Origin: a virus | UHGV virus genome: UHGV-1326494 | Length of the DNA stretch: 10,564 nucleotides | Direction: 5' to 3' (one strand) | In this document: piece after piece, positions 735 to 10,199 of the stretch | How the letters are laid out: every line of letters begins with the position of its first letter | How positions within the stretch are numbered: position 1 is the stretch's first letter | The notes under the pieces: generated by a model | What the model was told of the DNA's origin: nothing | Seen by the model: only the letters and a program-made list of their open reading frames with translations | Databases searched by the model: none | Program-made: the position numbers and the translations under genes

Positions 735-1342
735 GCGGCCTCACTTCTGCTGTTTCGCAGGTCTTTGAGTTTCTGCTGATATTCCGCCTTGATGGCCCTG
801 CACTCTTCGACAGTCCAGCGATGGCGGTTATGGTTTGATTCGATTTCGTCTACTGCTTCCTGCCCGATGCGGCTAATCAGTTCGACGCGATACGGAACGA
901 GATTTCCGCTTTTGTGCTGGTTGCACACCACGCATTGCTTGTGAATATTGCGTTCATCAAATCGGAGTTGAGGCGCCGCAGCAGTTGTCCGGTAATGCCC
1001 GGCATCCCACTGAGCAGACGTGAGCGTTCCGCACGAGATACATGGTAAGTCGCGGTCTCTTTCTCTGATGAAGGCGTTTACGGCTTGTTGGGCTTGTTTA
1101 ATCCAGTAACTGCGGGGCTTTAAGGCGAGTTTTCGAATCTTCAGTTTATCTTTCTGTTTCTGTTCCTCTCGTCGTCGTTTCTTCTCTGCTGCTTTTTCCG
1201 CTTTTTTGCGTTCTTTGCTTCGTCGTTCGAGTGCTATCTTTGTTCCACACTCTGGAGAGCACCACCACTGATTAGCGAATGCAGGGTGAAACCATTCCCG
1301 ACATTCATCGTTTTTACATCGTCTTCGCGCTGGTTTAGCCAT
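731..1342 (-). CDS. ninG: NinG/Rap-like recombination endonuclease (203 aa)
   Basis: 203-aa ORF with a Cys-rich N-terminus (C..C..C..C), a basic KR-rich linker and a C-terminal CxxC/H motif. Length and position match lambda NinG. ATG at 1340-1342 overlaps the ninF stop. Confidence 0.85.
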
Positions 1343-1511
1343 CGTCTTCTTCCTCGTACATTGAGCTATTCGGATCGCTCATCAGTTCTGCGCAGCAGTG
1401 CTCACACACATGAACTTCCAGCACATGCAGCTTCTGACCGCAGTTAGCGCACGTTAAAGCTCGCTCGACGCTTTCTTTCTGGTATTGAAGGGATTGGGAT
1501 GGGCTAAGCAT
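1335..1511 (-). CDS. ninF: NinF-like small protein (58 aa)
   Basis: Hand-translated minus-strand [61 protein letters not shown]. Below the ORF-track length cutoff. Overlaps neighbours at both ends. Confidence 0.7.
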
Positions 1512-1872
1512 TATTGGCGTCCTGAATCATGAGAAAGACAATCATGGCGGCACGGAGTGGATTGTCATATGCGACACCAACATTCGGTCCGGCATCATCA
1601 AACAAGTCCCTTGCGTTGTCTGTAGCGCACGGCATTGAGGGATTGTCTAAAATTATGCTGATGTTGTTTTCAGTGATAATCGGCCATGCGTCTGATGGTC
1701 TTTTACAGTAATCAACCGTTTTTATTGCATAACCAGTTTCGTCATCCCACTCAACACCAACGATTGATGTTCCCAACTTTGCGATTTCGCAATCTTCGGG
1801 AGCAAATCCACAGCAAATTGCCACTCGCTTGTTAATTTCAAAATCACTTAACTGTGAATAATCCATTGTCAT
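1504..1872 (-). CDS. Hypothetical nin-region protein (122 aa, 5 Cys), function unknown; occupies the NinX-like position between ninE and ninF
   Basis: ORF track gives 134 aa from an upstream ATG at 1908, but that extension overlaps ninE. The ATG at 1870-1872 ([10 protein letters not shown]...) forms an ATGA overlap with the ninE stop and is the likelier start. The stop overlaps the ninF start. Confidence 0.65.
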
Positions 1873-2045
1873 TTCCTCGCACGAAGTCTTAGCCACCGGA
1901 TATCCCACAGGTGAGCCGTGTAGTTGAAGGTTTTTACATCAGATTCTTTTGGGATTGGCTTGCGTTTATTTCTGGAGCGTTTCGTTGGAAGGTATTTGCA
2001 GTTTTCGCAGATTATGTCGGTAATACTTCGTCGCTGTCGTCTCAT
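1869..2045 (-). CDS. ninE: NinE-like small basic protein (58 aa)
   Basis: Hand-translated: [61 protein letters not shown] at 2043-2045 overlaps the ninC stop (ATGA). Below ORF-track cutoff. Confidence 0.65.
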
Positions 2046-2887
2046 GCCGCATCATCAAAATTAAATCCAAGCTGACATGAAAATGCTTCACATGATTCAG
2101 AACACGAACCTGAATCATACTGTCGCATTGATGTCATTCTTGAGGCTAACTCATCTCTTGATATATCACTAAACAAGGCAATCAGTGATTTAAGTGTATT
2201 ATTCCCTCGATACATAACCGGTTCCTTTCCTGTTTTTATTTCTGTATCAAGGATGTTGATAAATGCATCTGCAAGTTCTGGCTCATCCATGGCTGCCAGC
2301 GCAACCTTTTGCATACTTTTTTTTATACAGAAAACACAATTACCAAGATGCTCCTGTATGCCAAGATCAAACTTCTGCCCACTCCACCAATCAAGCACAT
2401 CCTGTTTTTCAAAATCGCTTATATCAGCCAGGTACCGAAAACCATTAGCCCTTTTAAGCCTGTTTGGTTCATCTGTGCGAATGCCAAGCCATGTGATGTA
2501 ATTTCCTTTCCCAAACTTTTCCTGACAATATTTGGTGAATGGAACAGACTTCATTCTGTCGGTACAGAACGCACCGCCGATATATGGATGTCCGTATTTA
2601 TTTAACATCCTTTTCCACGGTATAAGATCTGGACCAATATCATTGACACCTATCTCTTCATAACTACTGGCCTTCCCCATTTCTGGATTAGGTATTACAC
2701 GAAGGCAATGTAAGTCTATTTTCCAGTTACTGACGATATTTCGGATGAACTCATATGTTTTAGGGTGCTCTGCCCCTGTATCCATGAAAACGTAATGCAC
2801 GTCTTCACCTGCCTGTCGCTTTTGCTCCATTAGCCAGAGCAAATATGCTGACGTCCTGCCACCTGAGAAACTAACGACATTTATCAT
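2042..2887 (-). CDS. ninC: NinC-like protein, PAPS-reductase / PP-loop ATP pyrophosphatase superfamily (281 aa from internal start)
   Basis: ORF track 311 aa; the first 30 codons overlap the upstream methyltransferase. The internal ATG at 2885-2887 ([17 protein letters not shown], SGGxxS PP-loop) forms an ATGA overlap with the methyltransferase stop. Confidence 0.8.
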
Positions 2888-3411
2888 GCAGCCCTCCTGA
2901 CACCCTGCCCGATCGCCATCAATGCCGCTTTGGATACGGTAGTAAACATCCGTCGAGGACTGATGAACGGTCGCCAAATCAGCAGCATGGAGCCTTTGCT
3001 GTTTCCCTTCTTCTCCAGCCCTGTCGATGGTTCGATAAAATTAATCCGTCCATCAGTGATAATGCGAACTTCGTCGACACTCTCCAGAGCCTTGCTGAAC
3101 CATCCGACTGACATATCCTCTGGCACAAGCATAACTACCGTCTGTCGCTGTTGTATGCACTGCTCAGCGGCTTTTTCCACCCACGGCCTGATATTGCTGT
3201 ACGGTGGGTTATTCCAGATTGCACCGTGGCTTACCCACTCAGAATTGAGCGCGTCGTCGGCCTCAGTTAGCCAGTGAGCACACAGAGCATTTTTGTCGCT
3301 CGCTGCCGAATCCAGCCAGAATCCAAACTCAATATCCAGTGCATCAAAAAGCCAGAGCGGCGTTTGCCAGCAGTCCTTGTCGTGTGCTGGCGTATTTGAT
3401 TTGATAGTCAT
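2884..3411 (-). CDS. Orphan DNA N6-adenine methyltransferase, phage Dam family (175 aa)
   Basis: Translation from ATG at 3409-3411: MTIKSNTPAHDKDCWQTPLWLFDAL...WLDSAASDKNA...WNNPPYS. The WQTP start, D-A-A motif and NPPY catalytic motif are characteristic of phage-type Dam methylases. ATGA overlap with the ninB stop. No restriction endonuclease partner is visible. Confidence 0.8.
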   Translation of the reverse strand: MTIKSNTPAHDKDCWQTPLWLFDALDIEFGFWLDSAASDKNALCAHWLTEADDALNSEWVSHGAIWNNPPYSNIRPWVEKAAEQCIQQRQTVVMLVPEDMSVGWFSKALESVDEVRIITDGRINFIEPSTGLEKKGNSKGSMLLIWRPFISPRRMFTTVSKAALMAIGQGVRRAA

Positions 3412-3848
3412 GCAGCCCGATCTCCCCATCGCGCTTTCCATTCGAGAGCCAGTCGCGCTTCGTCTGACCACTTAACGCCACGCTCTGTACCGAATGCCTG
3501 TATAAGCTCTAATAGCTCCGCAAATTCGCTTACACGCATCCTGCTGGTTGACTGGCCTATTACCACAAAGCCATTCCCGGCAAGGTTAGGAACAACATCC
3601 TGCTGCTTTAATGCTGCGGTAAACACACACTTCCAGCTTTCTGCATCCAGCCAGCGACCATGCCATTCAACCTGACGAGAGACGTCACCAAGGCAAGCCC
3701 AAAGCTTTCGATTCTGGTCTAAGCTGCGGTTGCGTTCCTGAATGGTTACTACGATTGGTTTGGTTGGGTCTGGAAGAATTTGCTGTACTGCGTGAATAGC
3801 GTTTTGCTGATGTGCTGGAGATCGAATTTCAAAGGTTAGTTTTTTCAT
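3408..3848 (-). CDS. ninB: NinB/Orf recombination mediator (146 aa)
   Basis: ORF track 152 aa; start chosen at ATG 3846-3848 (MKKLTFEIRSPAHQQNAIHAVQQILPDP...), which has a purine-rich RBS (GGGAGAGAGGGAAG) upstream. Length and sequence match my memory of lambda NinB. Confidence 0.85.
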   Translation of the reverse strand: MKKLTFEIRSPAHQQNAIHAVQQILPDPTKPIVVTIQERNRSLDQNRKLWACLGDVSRQVEWHGRWLDAESWKCVFTAALKQQDVVPNLAGNGFVVIGQSTSRMRVSEFAELLELIQAFGTERGVKWSDEARLALEWKARWGDRAA

Positions 3849-3862
3849 GACTTCCCTCTCTC

Positions 3863-3896
3863 CCAAATAAAAAGGCCTGCGATTATCAGCAGGCCT
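3863..3896 (-). terminator. Intrinsic terminator between helicase and ninB (tR2-analog position)
   Basis: Perfect 8-bp inverted repeat aggcctgc (3873-3880) / gcaggcct (3889-3896) with an 8-nt loop. On the minus-strand transcript the hairpin is followed by UUUUAUUU (complement of 3865-3872). Confidence 0.6.
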
Positions 3897-3921
3897 GTTA
3901 TTAACTCAGTGATGTAGATGG

Positions 3922-5298
3922 TCATACGTCAGCCCCTTGTGCATATCGTCTGCCACGCGCAGCAGGTGCATTTGATGCTGTGCAAATCTGTCTGGCTTCA
4001 TCCTGGTCACATGCAACAAAGTGTCCGTTGCAGAACCGCTGGTAAACCGTACCAAGTGAGCCAAAACGGTTTTTCGTCACGATGATTTCAGCAAATGGCG
4101 CGGCGCTACTGTTCTCGTCATATACCGCTTCCCGATAGAGCATGATGATTGAGTCTGCGTCCTGCTCAATGCTTCCTGAATCACGCAAATCTGCGTTTGT
4201 CGGGCGTTTGTTTGGTCGCTTCTCAACATCGCGCGAAAGCTGACTCAGGGAGATAACCGGTGTTTTCAGGTCTTTCGCCATCGCCTTCAGGCTTCCGGAG
4301 ATGTGAGCAATTGCGAGGTCGTTGCGGTCTGCTTTCGGCTTCTCAATCAGGCCAAGATAATCCGCCATGATGAGTGACAGGTTTGGATTTTCCTGTTTGT
4401 GCCGTTCTGCGATTGAGCGTATTTCTTCGACCGATAACCGCGAGGCATCGACTACCCATACATCCAAATCTGCAAGCTGACTCATGCCGTTAGCAACACG
4501 CGCCCAGCCTTCGTCATCCATCGATGCAGGATTTCGCAGCACGCTAACAGACATCCTCCCGGCGTTGGCAATGCTTCGCTCTGCAATCTGCAATGCGCTC
4601 ATTTCCATCGAGAAAATCAACACTCCGCGCCGGATGTCAGAACCAGGAATAACGCGGCTTGCAACGCCTTCGGCAATCTTCAGCGCCAGTTCGGTTTTCC
4701 CCATACCCGGACGAGCAGCGATAATCACCAGGTCTTCCGCGTTCATCCCTCCGGTGATGGCGTCAAGTTCTTCGATTCCGGTCTTCAGGGTATCTGATTC
4801 CTCTCCGTTCCTCAGACGCCTGTCAAGCGTGTCAGTGTAGTCAGTGATGATTTCCCCTAACCGTACAGGTTTAACCTCGTCACGGGGCTTTCTGATGACT
4901 GAAAGACGCTTTACAAGCTCGTCCATCGCCTGACTCGATGTATCGATGGTTCCGCTCTGAATTGGTTCACGCATTTCATCCATGATTTCCAGCACCAGAC
5001 GGCGGTGATAGTTATCCGCGACCATTCCGGCATATCCCTTCAGGTTTGCGGCACTCGGGCAGTTCTTACTGGTCATCAGGATTGACGTGAAATGCTCCTC
5101 TCCGCACGCCTCGGCAACCATCAGCGCGTCGATTAGGTTTCTGTTTCTCGCCTGCTTACGGATAACTTCGAAGGCTTTCCTGTAGAGCGGAATTGAAAAC
5201 GCTTCCGGCTCAAGCGTTGCCAGAACGTCACTGGCGGTTGGAGTTAATCCACCAATCAGCAGGCCACCGATAACGCTCGCTTCGATATCCTGTCTCAT
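3922..5298 (-). CDS. Replicative DNA helicase, DnaB family (458 aa; P22 gene 12-like)
   Basis: 458-aa ORF with a DnaB-like N-terminus ([12 protein letters not shown]), Walker [10 protein letters not shown] and a RecA-like C-terminal fold. ATGA overlap with the upstream O-like gene stop. Confidence 0.9.
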
Positions 5299-7980: not shown

Positions 7981-8100
7981 ATGTTAGACATCATGACCAA
8001 CCCAATTCTCGGTGGTTTAGTTACCACATTCGCCATCTGCTTCGGTTTCACTATCTGGTCTGAAGTAGATGACTGGATGTGGGAACGCAAAAACAAATAA
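7981..8100 (+). CDS. Candidate small hydrophobic protein (39 aa) in the PL leader between nutL and the N-like gene
   Basis: ATG at 7981 preceded by GAGGAA at about 7 nt. MLDIMTNPILGGLVTTFAICFGFTIWSEVDDWMWERKNK has one predicted transmembrane segment. No homology claim. Confidence 0.3.
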   Translation: MLDIMTNPILGGLVTTFAICFGFTIWSEVDDWMWERKNK

Positions 8101-8140
8101 TCATCGTCACACAAGGATGTGTACCTTCCCGGAGGTCAAC

Positions 8141-8413
8141 ATGACAGTAGTCATTACATATCTGGCTGACGATAATGCCAGAAATCGCCGCAGAGCACGC
8201 AGACAGGCTCAACGTGAACAGGCAATGCAAGAGCAGCGACTGGCGCGAAAAATTGCGCTAAAGCTCTCTGGTTGCGTCAGAGCAGACAAAGCAGCATCAC
8301 TCGGAAGCCTTCGCTGCAAGAAGGCAGATGAATGCAGTGGAAGTATTTGCCTGCCAAACGTAGCTCTTTACGCGGCAGGCTACCGGAAATCAAAACAACT
8401 GACAGCGAGGTGA
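8141..8413 (+). CDS. N-like transcription antitermination protein (90 aa from the GGAGG-supported start; alternative 114-aa form from ATG 8069)
   Basis: GGAGG 6 nt upstream of ATG 8141. Arginine-rich motif NARNRRRARRQAQREQ near the N-terminus. The C-terminus (...VALYAAGYRKSKQLTAR) resembles what I remember of P22 gene 24. Located downstream of PL and nutL. Confidence 0.75.
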   Translation: MTVVITYLADDNARNRRRARRQAQREQAMQEQRLARKIALKLSGCVRADKAASLGSLRCKKADECSGSICLPNVALYAAGYRKSKQLTAR

Positions 8414-8435: not shown

Positions 8436-8975
8436 CTAAATTAGCTCATCAGCTTTACCAGCAAAGCGCATATAACACTCATGGAACCAGACGTCAGGTA
8501 TAACAAATTTCTCTTTACCTGACGCGCTGTAAGTCACACCTGAGCGATGGAGAAGGCCTTTTCTCATAAGAGATAAAGCGACCGGATCGCCGTGCTTAAG
8601 TACGATTTTGTTATTTGCCATAACAGCAAATGCTAAAACCTCTTTTTCCTGAATACTCAGAGAATTGAATAGGCGCTCAGTCTCCACAATTACTTTAGCC
8701 TCATCTATCTTACTGAGATATTTTTTATATCTGTCTGAAGATGCCAGAAATATAAACTCCACCCCCCTGTTCAGAACATAACTGATACACAAAAGCATTG
8801 CGTAATACATCCAGTGATCTGGAAGTATTTCGGGGTTCCTTATATCTACCCACTCTTTAATTGATGCTGGGGTGATTATTATCAAGGTAATTAAAATAAT
8901 AAGCATATGAATTAACTGTTGTAGCGTAAGACCACGCAGGAAGAAACGTAATAGTTCCTGCCACCAGTTACTCAT
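8436..8975 (-). CDS. Membrane protein antisense to the PL operon (179 aa); superinfection-exclusion SieB-like by position and architecture, family not confirmed
   Basis: ORF track 179 aa. GGAG about 8 nt upstream of the ATG at 8973-8975. Two predicted TM segments (LIHMLIILITLIIIT and WMYYAMLLCISYVL) followed by a soluble domain. The gene is visibly AT-rich compared with its neighbours and is convergent with the N-like gene. Confidence 0.65.
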   Translation of the reverse strand: MSNWWQELLRFFLRGLTLQQLIHMLIILITLIIITPASIKEWVDIRNPEILPDHWMYYAMLLCISYVLNRGVEFIFLASSDRYKKYLSKIDEAKVIVETERLFNSLSIQEKEVLAFAVMANNKIVLKHGDPVALSLMRKGLLHRSGVTYSASGKEKFVIPDVWFHECYMRFAGKADELI

Positions 8976-9237: not shown

Positions 9238-9606
9238 ATGTCAAACATCAAAAAATACATCATTGATTACGACTGGAAAGCATCAATAGAAATTGAAATC
9301 GACCATGACGTAATGACAGAGGAAAAACTTCACCAGATTAATAATTTCTGGTCAGACTCTGAATACCGACTCAATAAACACGGCTCTGTATTAAATGCTG
9401 TATTAATCATGCTGGCGCAACATGCTCTGCTTATAGCAATTTCAAGCGACTTAAATGCATATGGTGTTGTGTGTGAGTTCGACTGGAATGATGGAAATGG
9501 TCAGGAAGGATGGCCTCCAATGAATGGTAGCGAAGGAATAAGAATTACCGATATCGACACATCTGGAATATTTGATTCAGATGATATGACTATCAAAGCC
9601 GCCTGA
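9238..9606 (+). CDS. ea10: Ea10-like protein (122 aa)
   Basis: ORF track 122 aa with GAGGA upstream. AT-rich. Position between the N region and cIII, and the length, match lambda ea10. The identity is from memory and position, not a search. Confidence 0.6.
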   Translation: MSNIKKYIIDYDWKASIEIEIDHDVMTEEKLHQINNFWSDSEYRLNKHGSVLNAVLIMLAQHALLIAISSDLNAYGVVCEFDWNDGNGQEGWPPMNGSEGIRITDIDTSGIFDSDDMTIKAA

Positions 9607-9816: not shown

Positions 9817-9953
9817 CCATCAATCACCAGATGCTTCGTGCTGCACAGAACAAAGCAGTAATAGCCAGATTTATTGGTGATTCCAAAATGTGGCTTGAAG
9901 CAAATAAAGCGATGAAATCAGCTATCAACCTTCCGTGGTATCGCAGGAAATGA
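9801..9953 (+). CDS. kil: Kil-like small protein (50 aa), candidate host cell-division inhibitor
   Basis: ATG 9801 preceded by GGAGG. It overlaps the cIII-like 3' end, as kil overlaps cIII in lambda. MRNEIAINHQMLRAAQNKAVIARFIGDSKMWLEANKAMKSAINLPWYRRK; the FIGD.KM segment resembles remembered lambda Kil. Confidence 0.5.
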   Translation: MRNEIAINHQMLRAAQNKAVIARFIGDSKMWLEANKAMKSAINLPWYRRK

Positions 9954-10028
9954 GTTTTACAGATAACTGGTCAGACGAAGAATTCATTCGTCAGATGAAA
10001 GAATTAATCGGTAACGAAGGAGATATTC

Positions 10029-10199
10029 ATGTCACTTGCAACCACAGTGAAGGAGAGCAAGTTACAGAGACGCATGTACACGCAGCAGGCGTTAATGTAT
10101 CGCCAGAAGGGAGATCGTGAAGGTGTTCGCGTATTTTTAAATGCGGCAAAGACTGAAGTATTAAATCAGCGTTATTTCCTTGGGCCATGTCCATTCTGA
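10029..10199 (+). CDS. Candidate small protein (56 aa) between kil and the annealing-protein gene; Arf-like position
   Basis: AAGGAG (10017-10022) 6 nt upstream of ATG 10029. MSLATTVKESKLQRRMYTQQALMYRQKGDREGVRVFLNAAKTEVLNQRYFLGPCPF. An alternative overlapping frame (9950-10120, 56 aa, ATGA-coupled to the kil stop) is equally possible. Confidence 0.3.
   Translation: MSLATTVKESKLQRRMYTQQALMYRQKGDREGVRVFLNAAKTEVLNQRYFLGPCPF

What the first reader, a model, noticed from the sequence alone, without database searches (positions are those of the whole stretch)
1504..1872. Unknown 122-aa cysteine-containing protein embedded in the nin operon
It lies between ninE and ninF with overlapping start and stop codons, so it is co-translated with the nin genes. 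I recognise no motifs. It has five cysteines and acidic patches. nin-region extras are frequently accessory functions of unknown role.
Basis: inference. Interest (0 to 1): 0.4.

Follow-up and report, generated by a model that had tools for sequence, protein, structure and literature searches.

The report
Known phage gene ninX, function unknown
This open reading frame is the already named and annotated phage gene ninX (Pfam PF10765, also called DUF2591), a small acidic accessory protein that nobody has characterised. It is a real gene but not a new one, and its most notable feature is a conserved helical frame carrying two swappable, highly variable segments.

Summary
It sits between ninE and ninF with overlapping start and stop codons, and it has five cysteines.

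It is not unrecognisable. It matches Pfam PF10765 (P22 NinX, also called DUF2591) over the whole model. It is 100% identical to the annotated NinX of phage mEp234. RefSeq labels the same sequence in E. coli prophages "phage protein NinX family protein".

The function of the family is unknown. I found no experimental paper, and the nearest solved structures (4pup, and 1r7l/BC1872) are also uncharacterised.

What I can add:
- Only one of the five cysteines (C56) is conserved, so this is not a cysteine metal-binding motif.
- The family is almost always acidic.
- The predicted fold is helix, β-hairpin, helix, β-hairpin, helix.
- The three helices are strongly conserved. The two β segments are hypervariable and reassort independently between otherwise near-identical nin regions.

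My best guess, at about 35%, is a cytoplasmic protein-binding accessory factor. On this reading the variable face tracks a fast-evolving partner, probably part of host or prophage immunity.

Novelty: already known. Interest: low to moderate.

The parts
1504..1872 (-). ninX coding sequence. It gives 122 aa from the ATG at 1872 or 120 aa from the ATG at 1866, and ends at the TAG stop at 1506-1504.
   Evidence: ORF and translation. PF10765 full-length match, E=5.8e-19. PHROG 444, E=1.7e-39. 100% identical to mEp234 NinX, whose CDS has the same extent.
1875..1878 (-). GAGG ribosome-binding motif. It lies 8 nt upstream of the second ATG (1866) and 2 nt upstream of the first (1872).
   Evidence: Read from the sequence. 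Homologues mostly start at M-D-Y-S.
1869..1872 (-). ATGA overlap of the ninE stop codon and the ninX start codon.
   Evidence: ATGA junctions are described as typical of nin regions in PMC8022706.
1504..1511 (-). 8-nt overlap between the end of ninX and the start of ninF.
   Evidence: The mEp234 annotation shows the same overlap.
1819..1866 (-). Conserved block H1 (aa 3-18, M-D-Y-S-x-M-S-D-F-E-I-N-K-x-V-A), which contains predicted helix 1.
   Evidence: Conservation over 145 representatives. AF2 helix at 10-20. About 100% nucleotide identity across many E. coli prophage alleles. 91% codon identity at sites with the same amino acid.
1714..1818 (-). Variable cassette V1 (aa 19-53), predicted to form a β-hairpin. 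It holds the non-conserved C20, C21 and C28 and two acidic patches.
   Evidence: Median 12% identity between alleles whose NinF is at least 93% identical. AF2 strands at 38-43 and 48-53. Length ranges from 22 to 49 aa across the family.
1654..1713 (-). Conserved block H2 (aa 54-73, D-Y-C-N-N-P-x-D-A-W-P-I-I-x-E-N-x-I-S). It includes the invariant C56 (codon 1705-1707) and predicted helix 2. The window protein has K57 and R58 where the family usually has N57 and N58.
   Evidence: C56 100%, W63 97%, A62 99%. AF2 helix at 59-68. Codon read.
1564..1653 (-). Variable cassette V2 (aa 74-103), predicted to form a β-hairpin plus a loop. It holds the non-conserved C82 and the D-L-F-D-D acidic patch.
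   Evidence: Median 11% identity between alleles with near-identical NinF, and it reassorts independently of V1. AF2 strands at 72-77, 80-84 and 98-100.
1519..1563 (-). Conserved block H3 (aa 104-118, [15 protein letters not shown]), the C-terminal hydrophobic helix. A109 and L114 are invariant and R107 is 99% conserved.
   Evidence: AF2 helix at 105-121. 93% median identity between otherwise divergent alleles.
1869..2045 (-). ninE, the upstream neighbour in the same operon.
   Evidence: PF05322, E=6.6e-43.
1335..1511 (-). ninF, the downstream neighbour in the same operon, a small zinc-ribbon-like protein.
   Evidence: PF05810, E=1.8e-12. NinF is the +1 neighbour of NinX in 84 of 214 viral loci.

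Best explanation
Identity (about 0.98, shown): this is ninX, the P22-type nin-region gene (Pfam PF10765, also called DUF2591). It lies in the delayed-early rightward operon of a lambdoid phage or prophage, between ninE and ninF. It is probably translated in step with its neighbours through the overlapping stop and start codons.

Anatomy (shown or predicted with high confidence): the product is a stand-alone cytoplasmic protein of about 120 aa with pI about 4. It has an α/β sandwich fold with the order helix, β-hairpin, helix, β-hairpin, helix. The three helices form an almost invariant frame that includes one invariant cysteine (C56) and a near-invariant arginine (R107). The two β segments are hypervariable cassettes that recombine independently, using the conserved helix-coding DNA as crossover points.

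Mechanism (inferred, about 0.35): NinX is a dispensable accessory protein that works by binding another protein. It is not a metal-cluster protein and it does not bind nucleic acid. The conserved helical frame provides the fold and perhaps a self-association surface or a docking surface for a conserved partner. The variable, mostly acidic β face determines which fast-evolving partner is recognised. The most likely partner is a component of host or resident-prophage anti-phage immunity, which would make NinX a counter-defence or host-takeover factor.

The confidence value given is for this mechanism, not for the identity.
For: Identity:
- PF10765 match over the full model, 68.9 bits against a cutoff of 22.6. 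PHROG 444.
- 100% identical to mEp234 NinX, and the DNA is 98.7% identical to HK106 and mEp234.
- RefSeq names it "phage protein NinX family protein".

Dispensability and timing:
- The λ nin region has no ninX, and the whole region can be deleted without loss of plaque formation (PMC10695390).

Stand-alone protein:
- Of 1810 clusters at 50% identity, the 150 best-scoring that are listed are almost all 104-137 aa and show no fusions.

Fold:
- AF2 mean pLDDT 88.9 and pTM 0.84.
- An allele with 3% and 2% identity in V1 and V2 still gives the same order of elements, with pLDDT 86.7.

Frame and cassettes:
- C56, A109 and L114 are invariant, and 22 further positions are at least 90% conserved, all in the three helical blocks.
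- In 1267 locus pairs with NinF at least 93% identical, NinX is only 42% identical overall. By region: H1 82%, V1 12%, H2 60%, V2 11%, H3 93%.
- V1 and V2 reassort independently: 96 pairs share V1 only and 82 pairs share V2 only.
- In E. coli genomes, 1099 of 5426 carry a piece of this allele but only 18 carry all of it. Breakpoints fall at about nt 43-54 and about nt 198.
- Codon identity at sites with the same amino acid is 0.91, 0.60 and 0.79 in H1, H2 and H3, against 0.39-0.40 in the cassettes.
- An independent report notes ninX as the single divergent gene (43% identity) in otherwise identical nin regions (PMC4159516).

Acidity:
- 97% of 141 representatives are net negative, with a median charge of -8.

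Spread and neighbours:
- The gene occurs in early-gene clusters of many unrelated phage types: lambdoid phages, Skatevirus, Vibrio siphoviruses, Serratia phage Eta, and phages of 137-142 kb.
- It is often within four genes of a DNA methyltransferase: MT-A70 in 14 and Dam in 13 of 107 NinX groups.
Against: - No experiment on any family member was found.
- There is no hit in PADLOC, and no anti-defence library was available to search.
- No consistent partner gene emerged from 214 loci. The neighbours are generic early accessory genes.
- The methyltransferase proximity was not compared with a background rate.
- Hypervariability could be relaxed constraint on surface hairpins combined with the general mosaicism of nin regions, with no arms race involved.
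- The near-perfect conservation of the helices, and of a single cysteine at the start of a helix, would equally fit a catalytic or conserved-partner function located in the frame.
Confidence: 0.35

Rival explanations
1. NinX is an accessory factor of phage DNA metabolism. Through its conserved helical frame it would modulate the recombination, repair or replication functions encoded around it (NinB/Orf, NinG/Rap, RusA, methyltransferases). On this reading the β cassettes are merely tolerated variation.
For: It is embedded among NinB, NinG, RusA, YbcO, HNH and methyltransferase genes in many loci. The frame is conserved very strongly across distant phages. It is expressed from the same delayed-early operon as these genes.
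Against: λ has NinB, NinG and the other nin genes but no NinX, so these functions do not need it. The protein is strongly acidic, which makes direct DNA binding unlikely. No single DNA-metabolism gene co-occurs with it consistently.
Confidence: 0.2
2. NinX is a small thiol-dependent enzyme or redox or covalent-adduct protein. The invariant C56 at the N-terminus of helix 2 would be the reactive residue, assisted by conserved polar residues (D10, E12, N14, D54, D61, R107).
For: C56 is 100% invariant in 145 diverse representatives, whereas the other cysteines are not conserved. It sits in the loop just before predicted helix 2, a position typical of nucleophilic cysteines (established knowledge, used here as inference). 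The structural neighbour 4qyb was crystallised as a disulfide-bridged dimer (title).
Confidence: 0.12
3. NinX is a prophage-encoded defence or superinfection-exclusion factor that acts against other phages. The variable cassettes would recognise proteins of competing phages.
For: It has hypervariable cassettes. It is very common in E. coli and Salmonella prophages. In Salmonella virus VSt472 it lies two genes from a superinfection immunity gene.
Against: It lies in the repressed delayed-early lytic operon, not in a lysogen-expressed moron. No promoter excess was seen, with 3 promoter-like sites against 1.8 expected. It is also found in lytic phages such as Skatevirus, Vibrio phages and large phages. 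There is no PADLOC hit.
Confidence: 0.1
4. NinX binds double-stranded RNA or the ribosome through the dsRBD-like α-β-β-β-α half of its fold.
Confidence: 0.04
5. NinX is a cysteine-rich metal-binding (zinc) protein, as the five cysteines might suggest.
For: The window protein has five cysteines, and the neighbours NinF and NinE carry CxxC motifs.
Against: Four of the five cysteines lie in the variable cassettes and are not conserved. Family members carry 0-4 (V1) or 0-5 (V2) cysteines there, with no fixed spacing. There are no CxxC pairs and no conserved histidine.
Confidence: 0.02

Closest known systems
NinX of Escherichia phage mEp234 (AFM76327.1), with the near-identical genes of HK106 and HK544
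   Same: The protein is 100% identical. The CDS has the same 369-nt extent, the same position between NinE and NinF, and the same overlaps.
   Different: Nothing in the gene itself differs. The surrounding window is mosaic: no phage record covers more than 59% of the 10.5 kb.
NinX of Salmonella phage P22, the founding member of Pfam PF10765 (DUF2591)
   Same: It has the same family, the same slot between ninE and ninF, and the same three conserved helical blocks.
   Different: Identity is only about 43%, because both variable cassettes are of other types. Its function is equally unknown (PMC8022706).
PDB 4pup and 4qyb, an uncharacterised protein from Burkholderia cenocepacia
   Different: Identity is 15%. 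It is not detected by sequence profiles built from 40 or 141 NinX sequences. It has no known function. Whether the cysteine of its disulfide-bridged dimer aligns with C56 could not be checked.
PDB 1r7l, prophage protein BC1872 of Bacillus cereus. I link it to Pfam PF18066 (Phage ABA sandwich domain) from memory; I did not confirm that link with a tool.
   Different: Identity is 17%. The window protein itself does not hit PF18066. BC1872 was published as a "singleton with new fold" with no function (title cited in PMC7145618).
Acb4, the anti-CBASS cyclic-nucleotide sponge of Bacillus phage SPO1 (PDB 9e4w)
   Different: The similarity is weak and partial, covering 57-82 residues at TM about 0.3. 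There is no sequence relation. This is a lead only.

Membership tests
Pfam PF10765 Phage_P22_NinX (DUF2591) | Score above the curated gathering threshold over the whole model | tested here: met
   68.9 bits against a cutoff of 22.6, E=5.8e-19, model positions 1-114 of 114. PHROG 444 covers positions 1-121 of 121.
Pfam PF10765 Phage_P22_NinX (DUF2591) | The three family signature blocks (S-D-F-E-I-N; C-N-N-P-x-D-A-W-P-I-I; [11 protein letters not shown]) | tested here: met
   All three are present. One deviation: the window protein has C-K-R-P where 92% and 79% of members have N at positions 57 and 58.
Pfam PF10765 Phage_P22_NinX (DUF2591) | Stand-alone protein of about 105-135 aa in an early or nin-type accessory gene cluster. 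In lambdoid phages it lies between ninE and ninF. | tested here: met
   122 aa, with NinE upstream and NinF downstream. The order is the same in the P22-pbi and mEp234 annotations. NinF is the +1 neighbour in 84 of 214 loci.
Pfam PF18066 Phage_ABA_S (which I recall, from memory, to be the BC1872 family) | Sequence match to the family model | tested here: not met
   The window protein has no PF18066 hit even at E up to 10. Only 3 of 141 family representatives hit, and only weakly (best E=0.02).
Pfam PF18066 Phage_ABA_S (which I recall, from memory, to be the BC1872 family) | α/β/α sandwich fold of BC1872 | tested here: met
Double-stranded RNA-binding domain (dsRBD) | α-β-β-β-α fold with a basic RNA-binding surface | tested here: not met
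Cysteine-based metal-binding (zinc ribbon or finger) proteins | Three or four conserved Cys/His ligands with fixed spacing | tested here: not met
   Only C56 is conserved. C20, C21, C28 and C82 lie in the variable cassettes.
Known anti-phage defence system proteins (PADLOC-DB) | Match to a defence-protein model | tested here: not met
   0 families at E up to 0.01.
Known anti-defence proteins (for example the Acb4 sponge) | Significant structural or sequence similarity to a characterised inhibitor | tested here: inconclusive

The most novel reading that the evidence does not exclude
NinX is a modular specificity scaffold used by many unrelated phage lineages. An invariant three-helix frame with a single invariant cysteine carries two independently exchangeable β-hairpin cassettes. 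Phages would re-target an inhibitor of fast-evolving host or prophage immunity proteins simply by recombining at the conserved helix-coding DNA. That would define a new, very widespread counter-defence family with a built-in cassette-swapping mechanism.
Probability: 0.2. Interest if true: 0.6.

Novelty: already known. Interest (0 to 1): 0.22.

Why it matters
As a gene discovery it does not matter, because ninX is named, has a Pfam family and is routinely annotated. The residual value lies in the fact that the family is large and still has no function. It has 1810 clusters at 50% identity and is spread across lambdoid phages, Vibrio and Serratia phages, Skatevirus and large phages. The analysis here narrows the options: the protein is not a cysteine metal-binding protein, is unlikely to bind nucleic acid, and has no domain fusions. 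It also shows an unusually clean architecture of frame plus two cassettes, with independent reassortment. That gives a concrete experimental handle. Swapping cassettes or mutating C56 or R107 could tell whether this is a counter-defence specificity module.

Tried and rejected
- NCBIfam scan: no family.
- PDB sequence searches with the single protein and with profiles of 40 and 141 sequences: only chance-level hits, and neither 4pup nor 1r7l was reached.
- Foldseek against the PDB: nothing at E up to 0.001.
- Foldseek against the viral structure set BFVD: only uncharacterised proteins.
- The afdb50 library was not available.
- PADLOC: no hit for NinX.
- Rfam on the whole window: no RNA family.
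- Promoter and terminator scan of 1200-2300: 3 promoter-like sites against 1.8 expected and no terminator, so there is no sign of an independent transcription unit.
- Literature searches under NinX, DUF2591, PF10765, phrog_444, IPR019701, 1R7L, 4PUP, 4QYB, BC1872 and "ABA sandwich": only annotation-level mentions. The BC1872 structure paper is not held.
- A search for a link between the nin region and anti-defence: no paper connecting them.
- Domain fusions as a clue to function: none among the 150 best-scoring representatives listed. One 175-aa NinX-NinF product (P0057) looks like a frameshift or read-through artefact of the 8-nt overlap.
- Guilt by association over 214 viral loci: no consistent partner. 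The PAPS-reductase proximity seen here and in Vibrio phage K137 did not generalise.
- The plus-strand ORFs inside the region (1529-1711 and 1686-1835) were not pursued. The minus-strand frame explains all the conservation.

Full report
**1. The observation**

All genes between about 500 and 6900 of the window are on the minus strand. The ORF list gives 1504..1908 (minus strand) from an upstream GTG. Translating 1504-1872 gives 122 codons and a TAG stop. The protein has five cysteines (C20, C21, C28, C56, C82), 20 acidic against 8 basic residues, and a pI of 4.05.

Pfam identifies the flanking genes as NinE (1869-2045) and NinF (1335-1511). Further along the same strand are NinG, NinH, a PAPS-reductase-like protein, a Dam methyltransferase and NinB.

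The ninX ATG at 1872-1870 overlaps the ninE TGA stop, giving ATGA. The ninX TAG stop at 1506-1504 lies 8 nt inside ninF.

One refinement concerns the start codon. The GAGG ribosome-binding motif is 2 nt from the first ATG and 8 nt from the second (1866). Most homologues begin M-D-Y-S. The real product may therefore be 120 aa, unless it is made by coupled re-initiation at the ATGA.

**2. What it is**

The protein matches Pfam PF10765 ("Bacteriophage P22, NinX", formerly DUF2591) over the entire model, at 68.9 bits against a cutoff of 22.6. It also matches PHROG 444, a family of unknown function.

It is 100% identical to the annotated NinX of Escherichia phage mEp234, whose CDS has the same length and the same overlaps. 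The DNA is 98.4-98.7% identical to HK106, mEp234 and HK544. RefSeq calls the identical sequence in E. coli chromosomes "phage protein NinX family protein".

The rest of the window is a typical lambdoid early region. It carries an S24-type repressor, a P22-type Cro, CII, O, a DnaB-type helicase, N, cIII, Kil and SieB. No single phage record covers more than 59% of it.

This is a known, named gene.

**3. What is known about the family**

Nothing functional is known. Papers that mention NinX or DUF2591 only list it in annotation tables, or note that it is unusually divergent.

The λ nin region contains no ninX, and the whole region can be deleted without loss of plaque formation (PMC10695390). 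NinX is therefore a dispensable delayed-early accessory gene.

**4. Size and spread of the family**

There are 2578 homologues in the 5.8-billion-protein set and 1810 clusters at 50% identity. The 150 listed representatives are almost all 104-137 aa and show no informative fusions.

In the phage collection, 587 records carry a homologue. These include 321 Vibrio phage records, Klebsiella, Serratia, Erwinia, Providencia and Pectobacterium phages, and phages of 137-142 kb.

**5. Structure**

AlphaFold2 with a 40-sequence alignment gives mean pLDDT 88.9 and pTM 0.84. The order of elements is helix (10-20), β-hairpin (38-43, 48-53), helix (59-68), strands (72-77, 80-84, 98-100), helix (105-121).

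BC1872 was published as a "singleton with new fold" (reference title seen). Neither neighbour is reachable by sequence profile.

PF18066 (Phage ABA sandwich domain) is the only Pfam family other than PF10765 that is hit by more than one NinX representative: 3 of 141, best E=0.02. I recall from memory that PF18066 is the BC1872 family, but I did not confirm this with a tool. If that recollection is right, the hits fit a distant superfamily link.

**6. Conservation pattern**

Over 145 representatives that share less than 50% identity with each other, conservation is concentrated in three blocks that coincide with the three helices:
- aa 3-18: M-D-Y-S-x-M-S-D-F-E-I-N-K-x-V-A.
- aa 54-73: D-Y-C-N-N-P-x-D-A-W-P-I-I-x-E-N-x-I-S.
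- aa 104-118: [15 protein letters not shown].

C56, A109 and L114 are invariant, and R107 is 99% conserved. The regions between the blocks (aa 19-53 and 74-103) are essentially unalignable and vary in length, from 22 to 49 aa and from 20 to 43 aa.

That rules out a cysteine metal-binding motif.

Acidity, in contrast, is a family trait. 97% of representatives are net negative, with a median charge of -8.

This allele has K57-R58 where the family has N57-N58.

**7. Mosaic behaviour**

Among 57 distinct lambdoid loci there are 1267 pairs whose NinF proteins are at least 93% identical. In those pairs NinX is only 42% identical (median). By region the medians are H1 82%, V1 12%, H2 60%, V2 11% and H3 93%.

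The two cassettes reassort independently. 96 pairs share V1 but not V2, and 82 pairs share V2 but not V1.

At the DNA level, 1099 of 5426 complete E. coli genomes contain part of this allele, mostly at 99% identity or better. Only 18 contain all of it. The shared pieces fall into three kinds:
- nt 1-43 to 1-50, which is H1 only.
- nt 1-198, which is H1, V1 and H2.
- The two ends with a different V1.

At positions with the same amino acid, codon identity is 0.91 in H1, 0.60 in H2 and 0.79 in H3, against 0.39-0.40 in the cassettes. The helix-coding DNA therefore travels with the conserved flanks and serves as the crossover site.

An allele whose cassettes are 3% and 2% identical to the window's (P0219) is still predicted, at pLDDT 86.7, to have the same order of elements: helix, hairpin, helix, hairpin, helix. 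The cassettes are therefore structurally equivalent even though their sequences are unrelated.

An independent observation in the literature agrees. In phage Sf101 the nin region is identical to that of HK544 except for ninX, which is 43% identical (PMC4159516).

**8. Genomic context elsewhere**

I analysed 214 viral loci falling into 107 NinX groups at 70% identity. The recurrent neighbours were:
- A TraR/DksA-type zinc-finger protein immediately upstream (28 groups).
- NinF immediately downstream (23 groups).
- NinG, NinB, NinE and RusA.
- MT-A70 (14 groups) and Dam (13 groups) methyltransferases.
- DUF551, DUF4222, YbcO, HNH endonucleases, and integrase or excisionase.

Short metagenomic contigs showed the same kind of company. 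In Salmonella virus VSt472 the gene sits in a small cluster with a superinfection-immunity gene and a DUF551 gene, on the opposite strand to the flanking tail genes.

No partner is consistent across these loci. The PAPS-reductase proximity seen in this window and in Vibrio phage K137 did not generalise.

**9. Mechanism**

These points are shown:
- The identity of the gene.
- Its operon position.
- Dispensability of the λ nin region, which lacks ninX.
- Its stand-alone, acidic nature.
- The conserved frame with two reassorting cassettes.

The fold is predicted with high confidence.

The function is inferred. My best reading, at about 0.35, is a cytoplasmic protein-binding accessory factor. The helical frame would provide the fold and perhaps a self-association or docking surface. 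Helix 3 is hydrophobic all the way round, which suggests it is buried against another surface. The variable acidic β face would determine which fast-evolving partner is bound, most plausibly a host or prophage immunity component.

The rivals are:
- A DNA-metabolism accessory factor acting through the frame (0.20).
- A thiol-dependent enzyme or redox protein using C56 (0.12).
- A prophage defence or exclusion factor (0.10).
- RNA or ribosome binding (0.04).
- A cysteine metal-binding protein (0.02, effectively refuted).

There is no experimental evidence, and I could not reach the model coordinates to test whether the conserved polar residues cluster.

**10. Verdict**

The finding is a correct description of a real gene, but the gene is already known and annotated as ninX. 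The cysteines are a red herring. The most interesting thing about it is the architecture of frame plus two cassettes, which I did not find described in the papers available to me. That raises the interest slightly, but the finding does not become a new kind of system. Novelty: already known. Interest: 0.22.

Noticed in passing
window 2042-2977 (-) and 2884-3471 (-): A PAPS-reductase-like protein of 311 aa (the λ NinC type) also gives weak to moderate matches to the defence-system proteins SspD (E=3.7e-14), BrxP and DndC. It lies directly after a Dam-type N6-adenine methyltransferase. The two ORFs overlap by about 94 nt if the listed TTG start is used, so the real start is probably further downstream.
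   Followed up: partly
window 1866-1878 (-): The start codon is ambiguous. The GAGG motif is spaced 8 nt from the second ATG (1866) and only 2 nt from the annotated ATG (1872). Different gene callers give 120 aa (P0001) or 122 aa (mEp234).
   Followed up: partly
window 1699-1704 (-), aa 57-58 of NinX: This allele has Lys-Arg directly after the invariant Cys56, where 92% and 79% of family representatives have Asn-Asn. The change is next to the most conserved residue of the family.
   Followed up: no
window 8436-8975 (-): A 179-aa protein with hydrophobic N-terminal segments matches SieB, the superinfection exclusion protein B (PF14163, E=3.4e-19). It lies on the strand opposite to the N, cIII and Kil genes around it.
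   Followed up: partly
window 9238-9606 (+) and 9935-10120 (+): There are two further small proteins of unknown function in the leftward early operon. One is a 122-aa DUF2528 protein (E=1.4e-46). The other is a 61-aa ORF with no Pfam match, located after Kil.
   Followed up: partly
window 8069-8413 (+): This is an N-type antiterminator (PF25694). The Pfam match covers only residues 35-114, so the listed ATG start is probably too far upstream.
   Followed up: no
protein P0057: A 175-aa predicted protein carries both the NinX and NinF Pfam domains. It is probably a frameshift or read-through across the 8-nt ninX/ninF overlap in one assembled contig and not a real fusion.
   Followed up: no
L001 (Vibrio phage K137) 2199-4339: In this unrelated Vibrio siphovirus the NinX homologue lies two small genes downstream of a PAPS reductase. 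This echoes the order PAPS reductase, NinE, NinX in the window. The association did not recur in the 214-locus survey.
   Followed up: yes
214 viral loci, for example L094 and L086: Outside the classic ninE-ninX-ninF arrangement, the commonest gene immediately upstream of NinX is a TraR/DksA-type C4 zinc-finger protein of about 72 aa (28 of 107 NinX groups). NinX is thus often flanked by small zinc-finger proteins.
   Followed up: partly
L003 (Salmonella virus VSt472) 3664-4536: A four-gene cluster (superinfection immunity protein, hypothetical protein, DUF2591/NinX, DUF551) sits on the opposite strand to the flanking tail genes (tape measure and neck whiskers) of a lytic Skatevirus.
   Followed up: no
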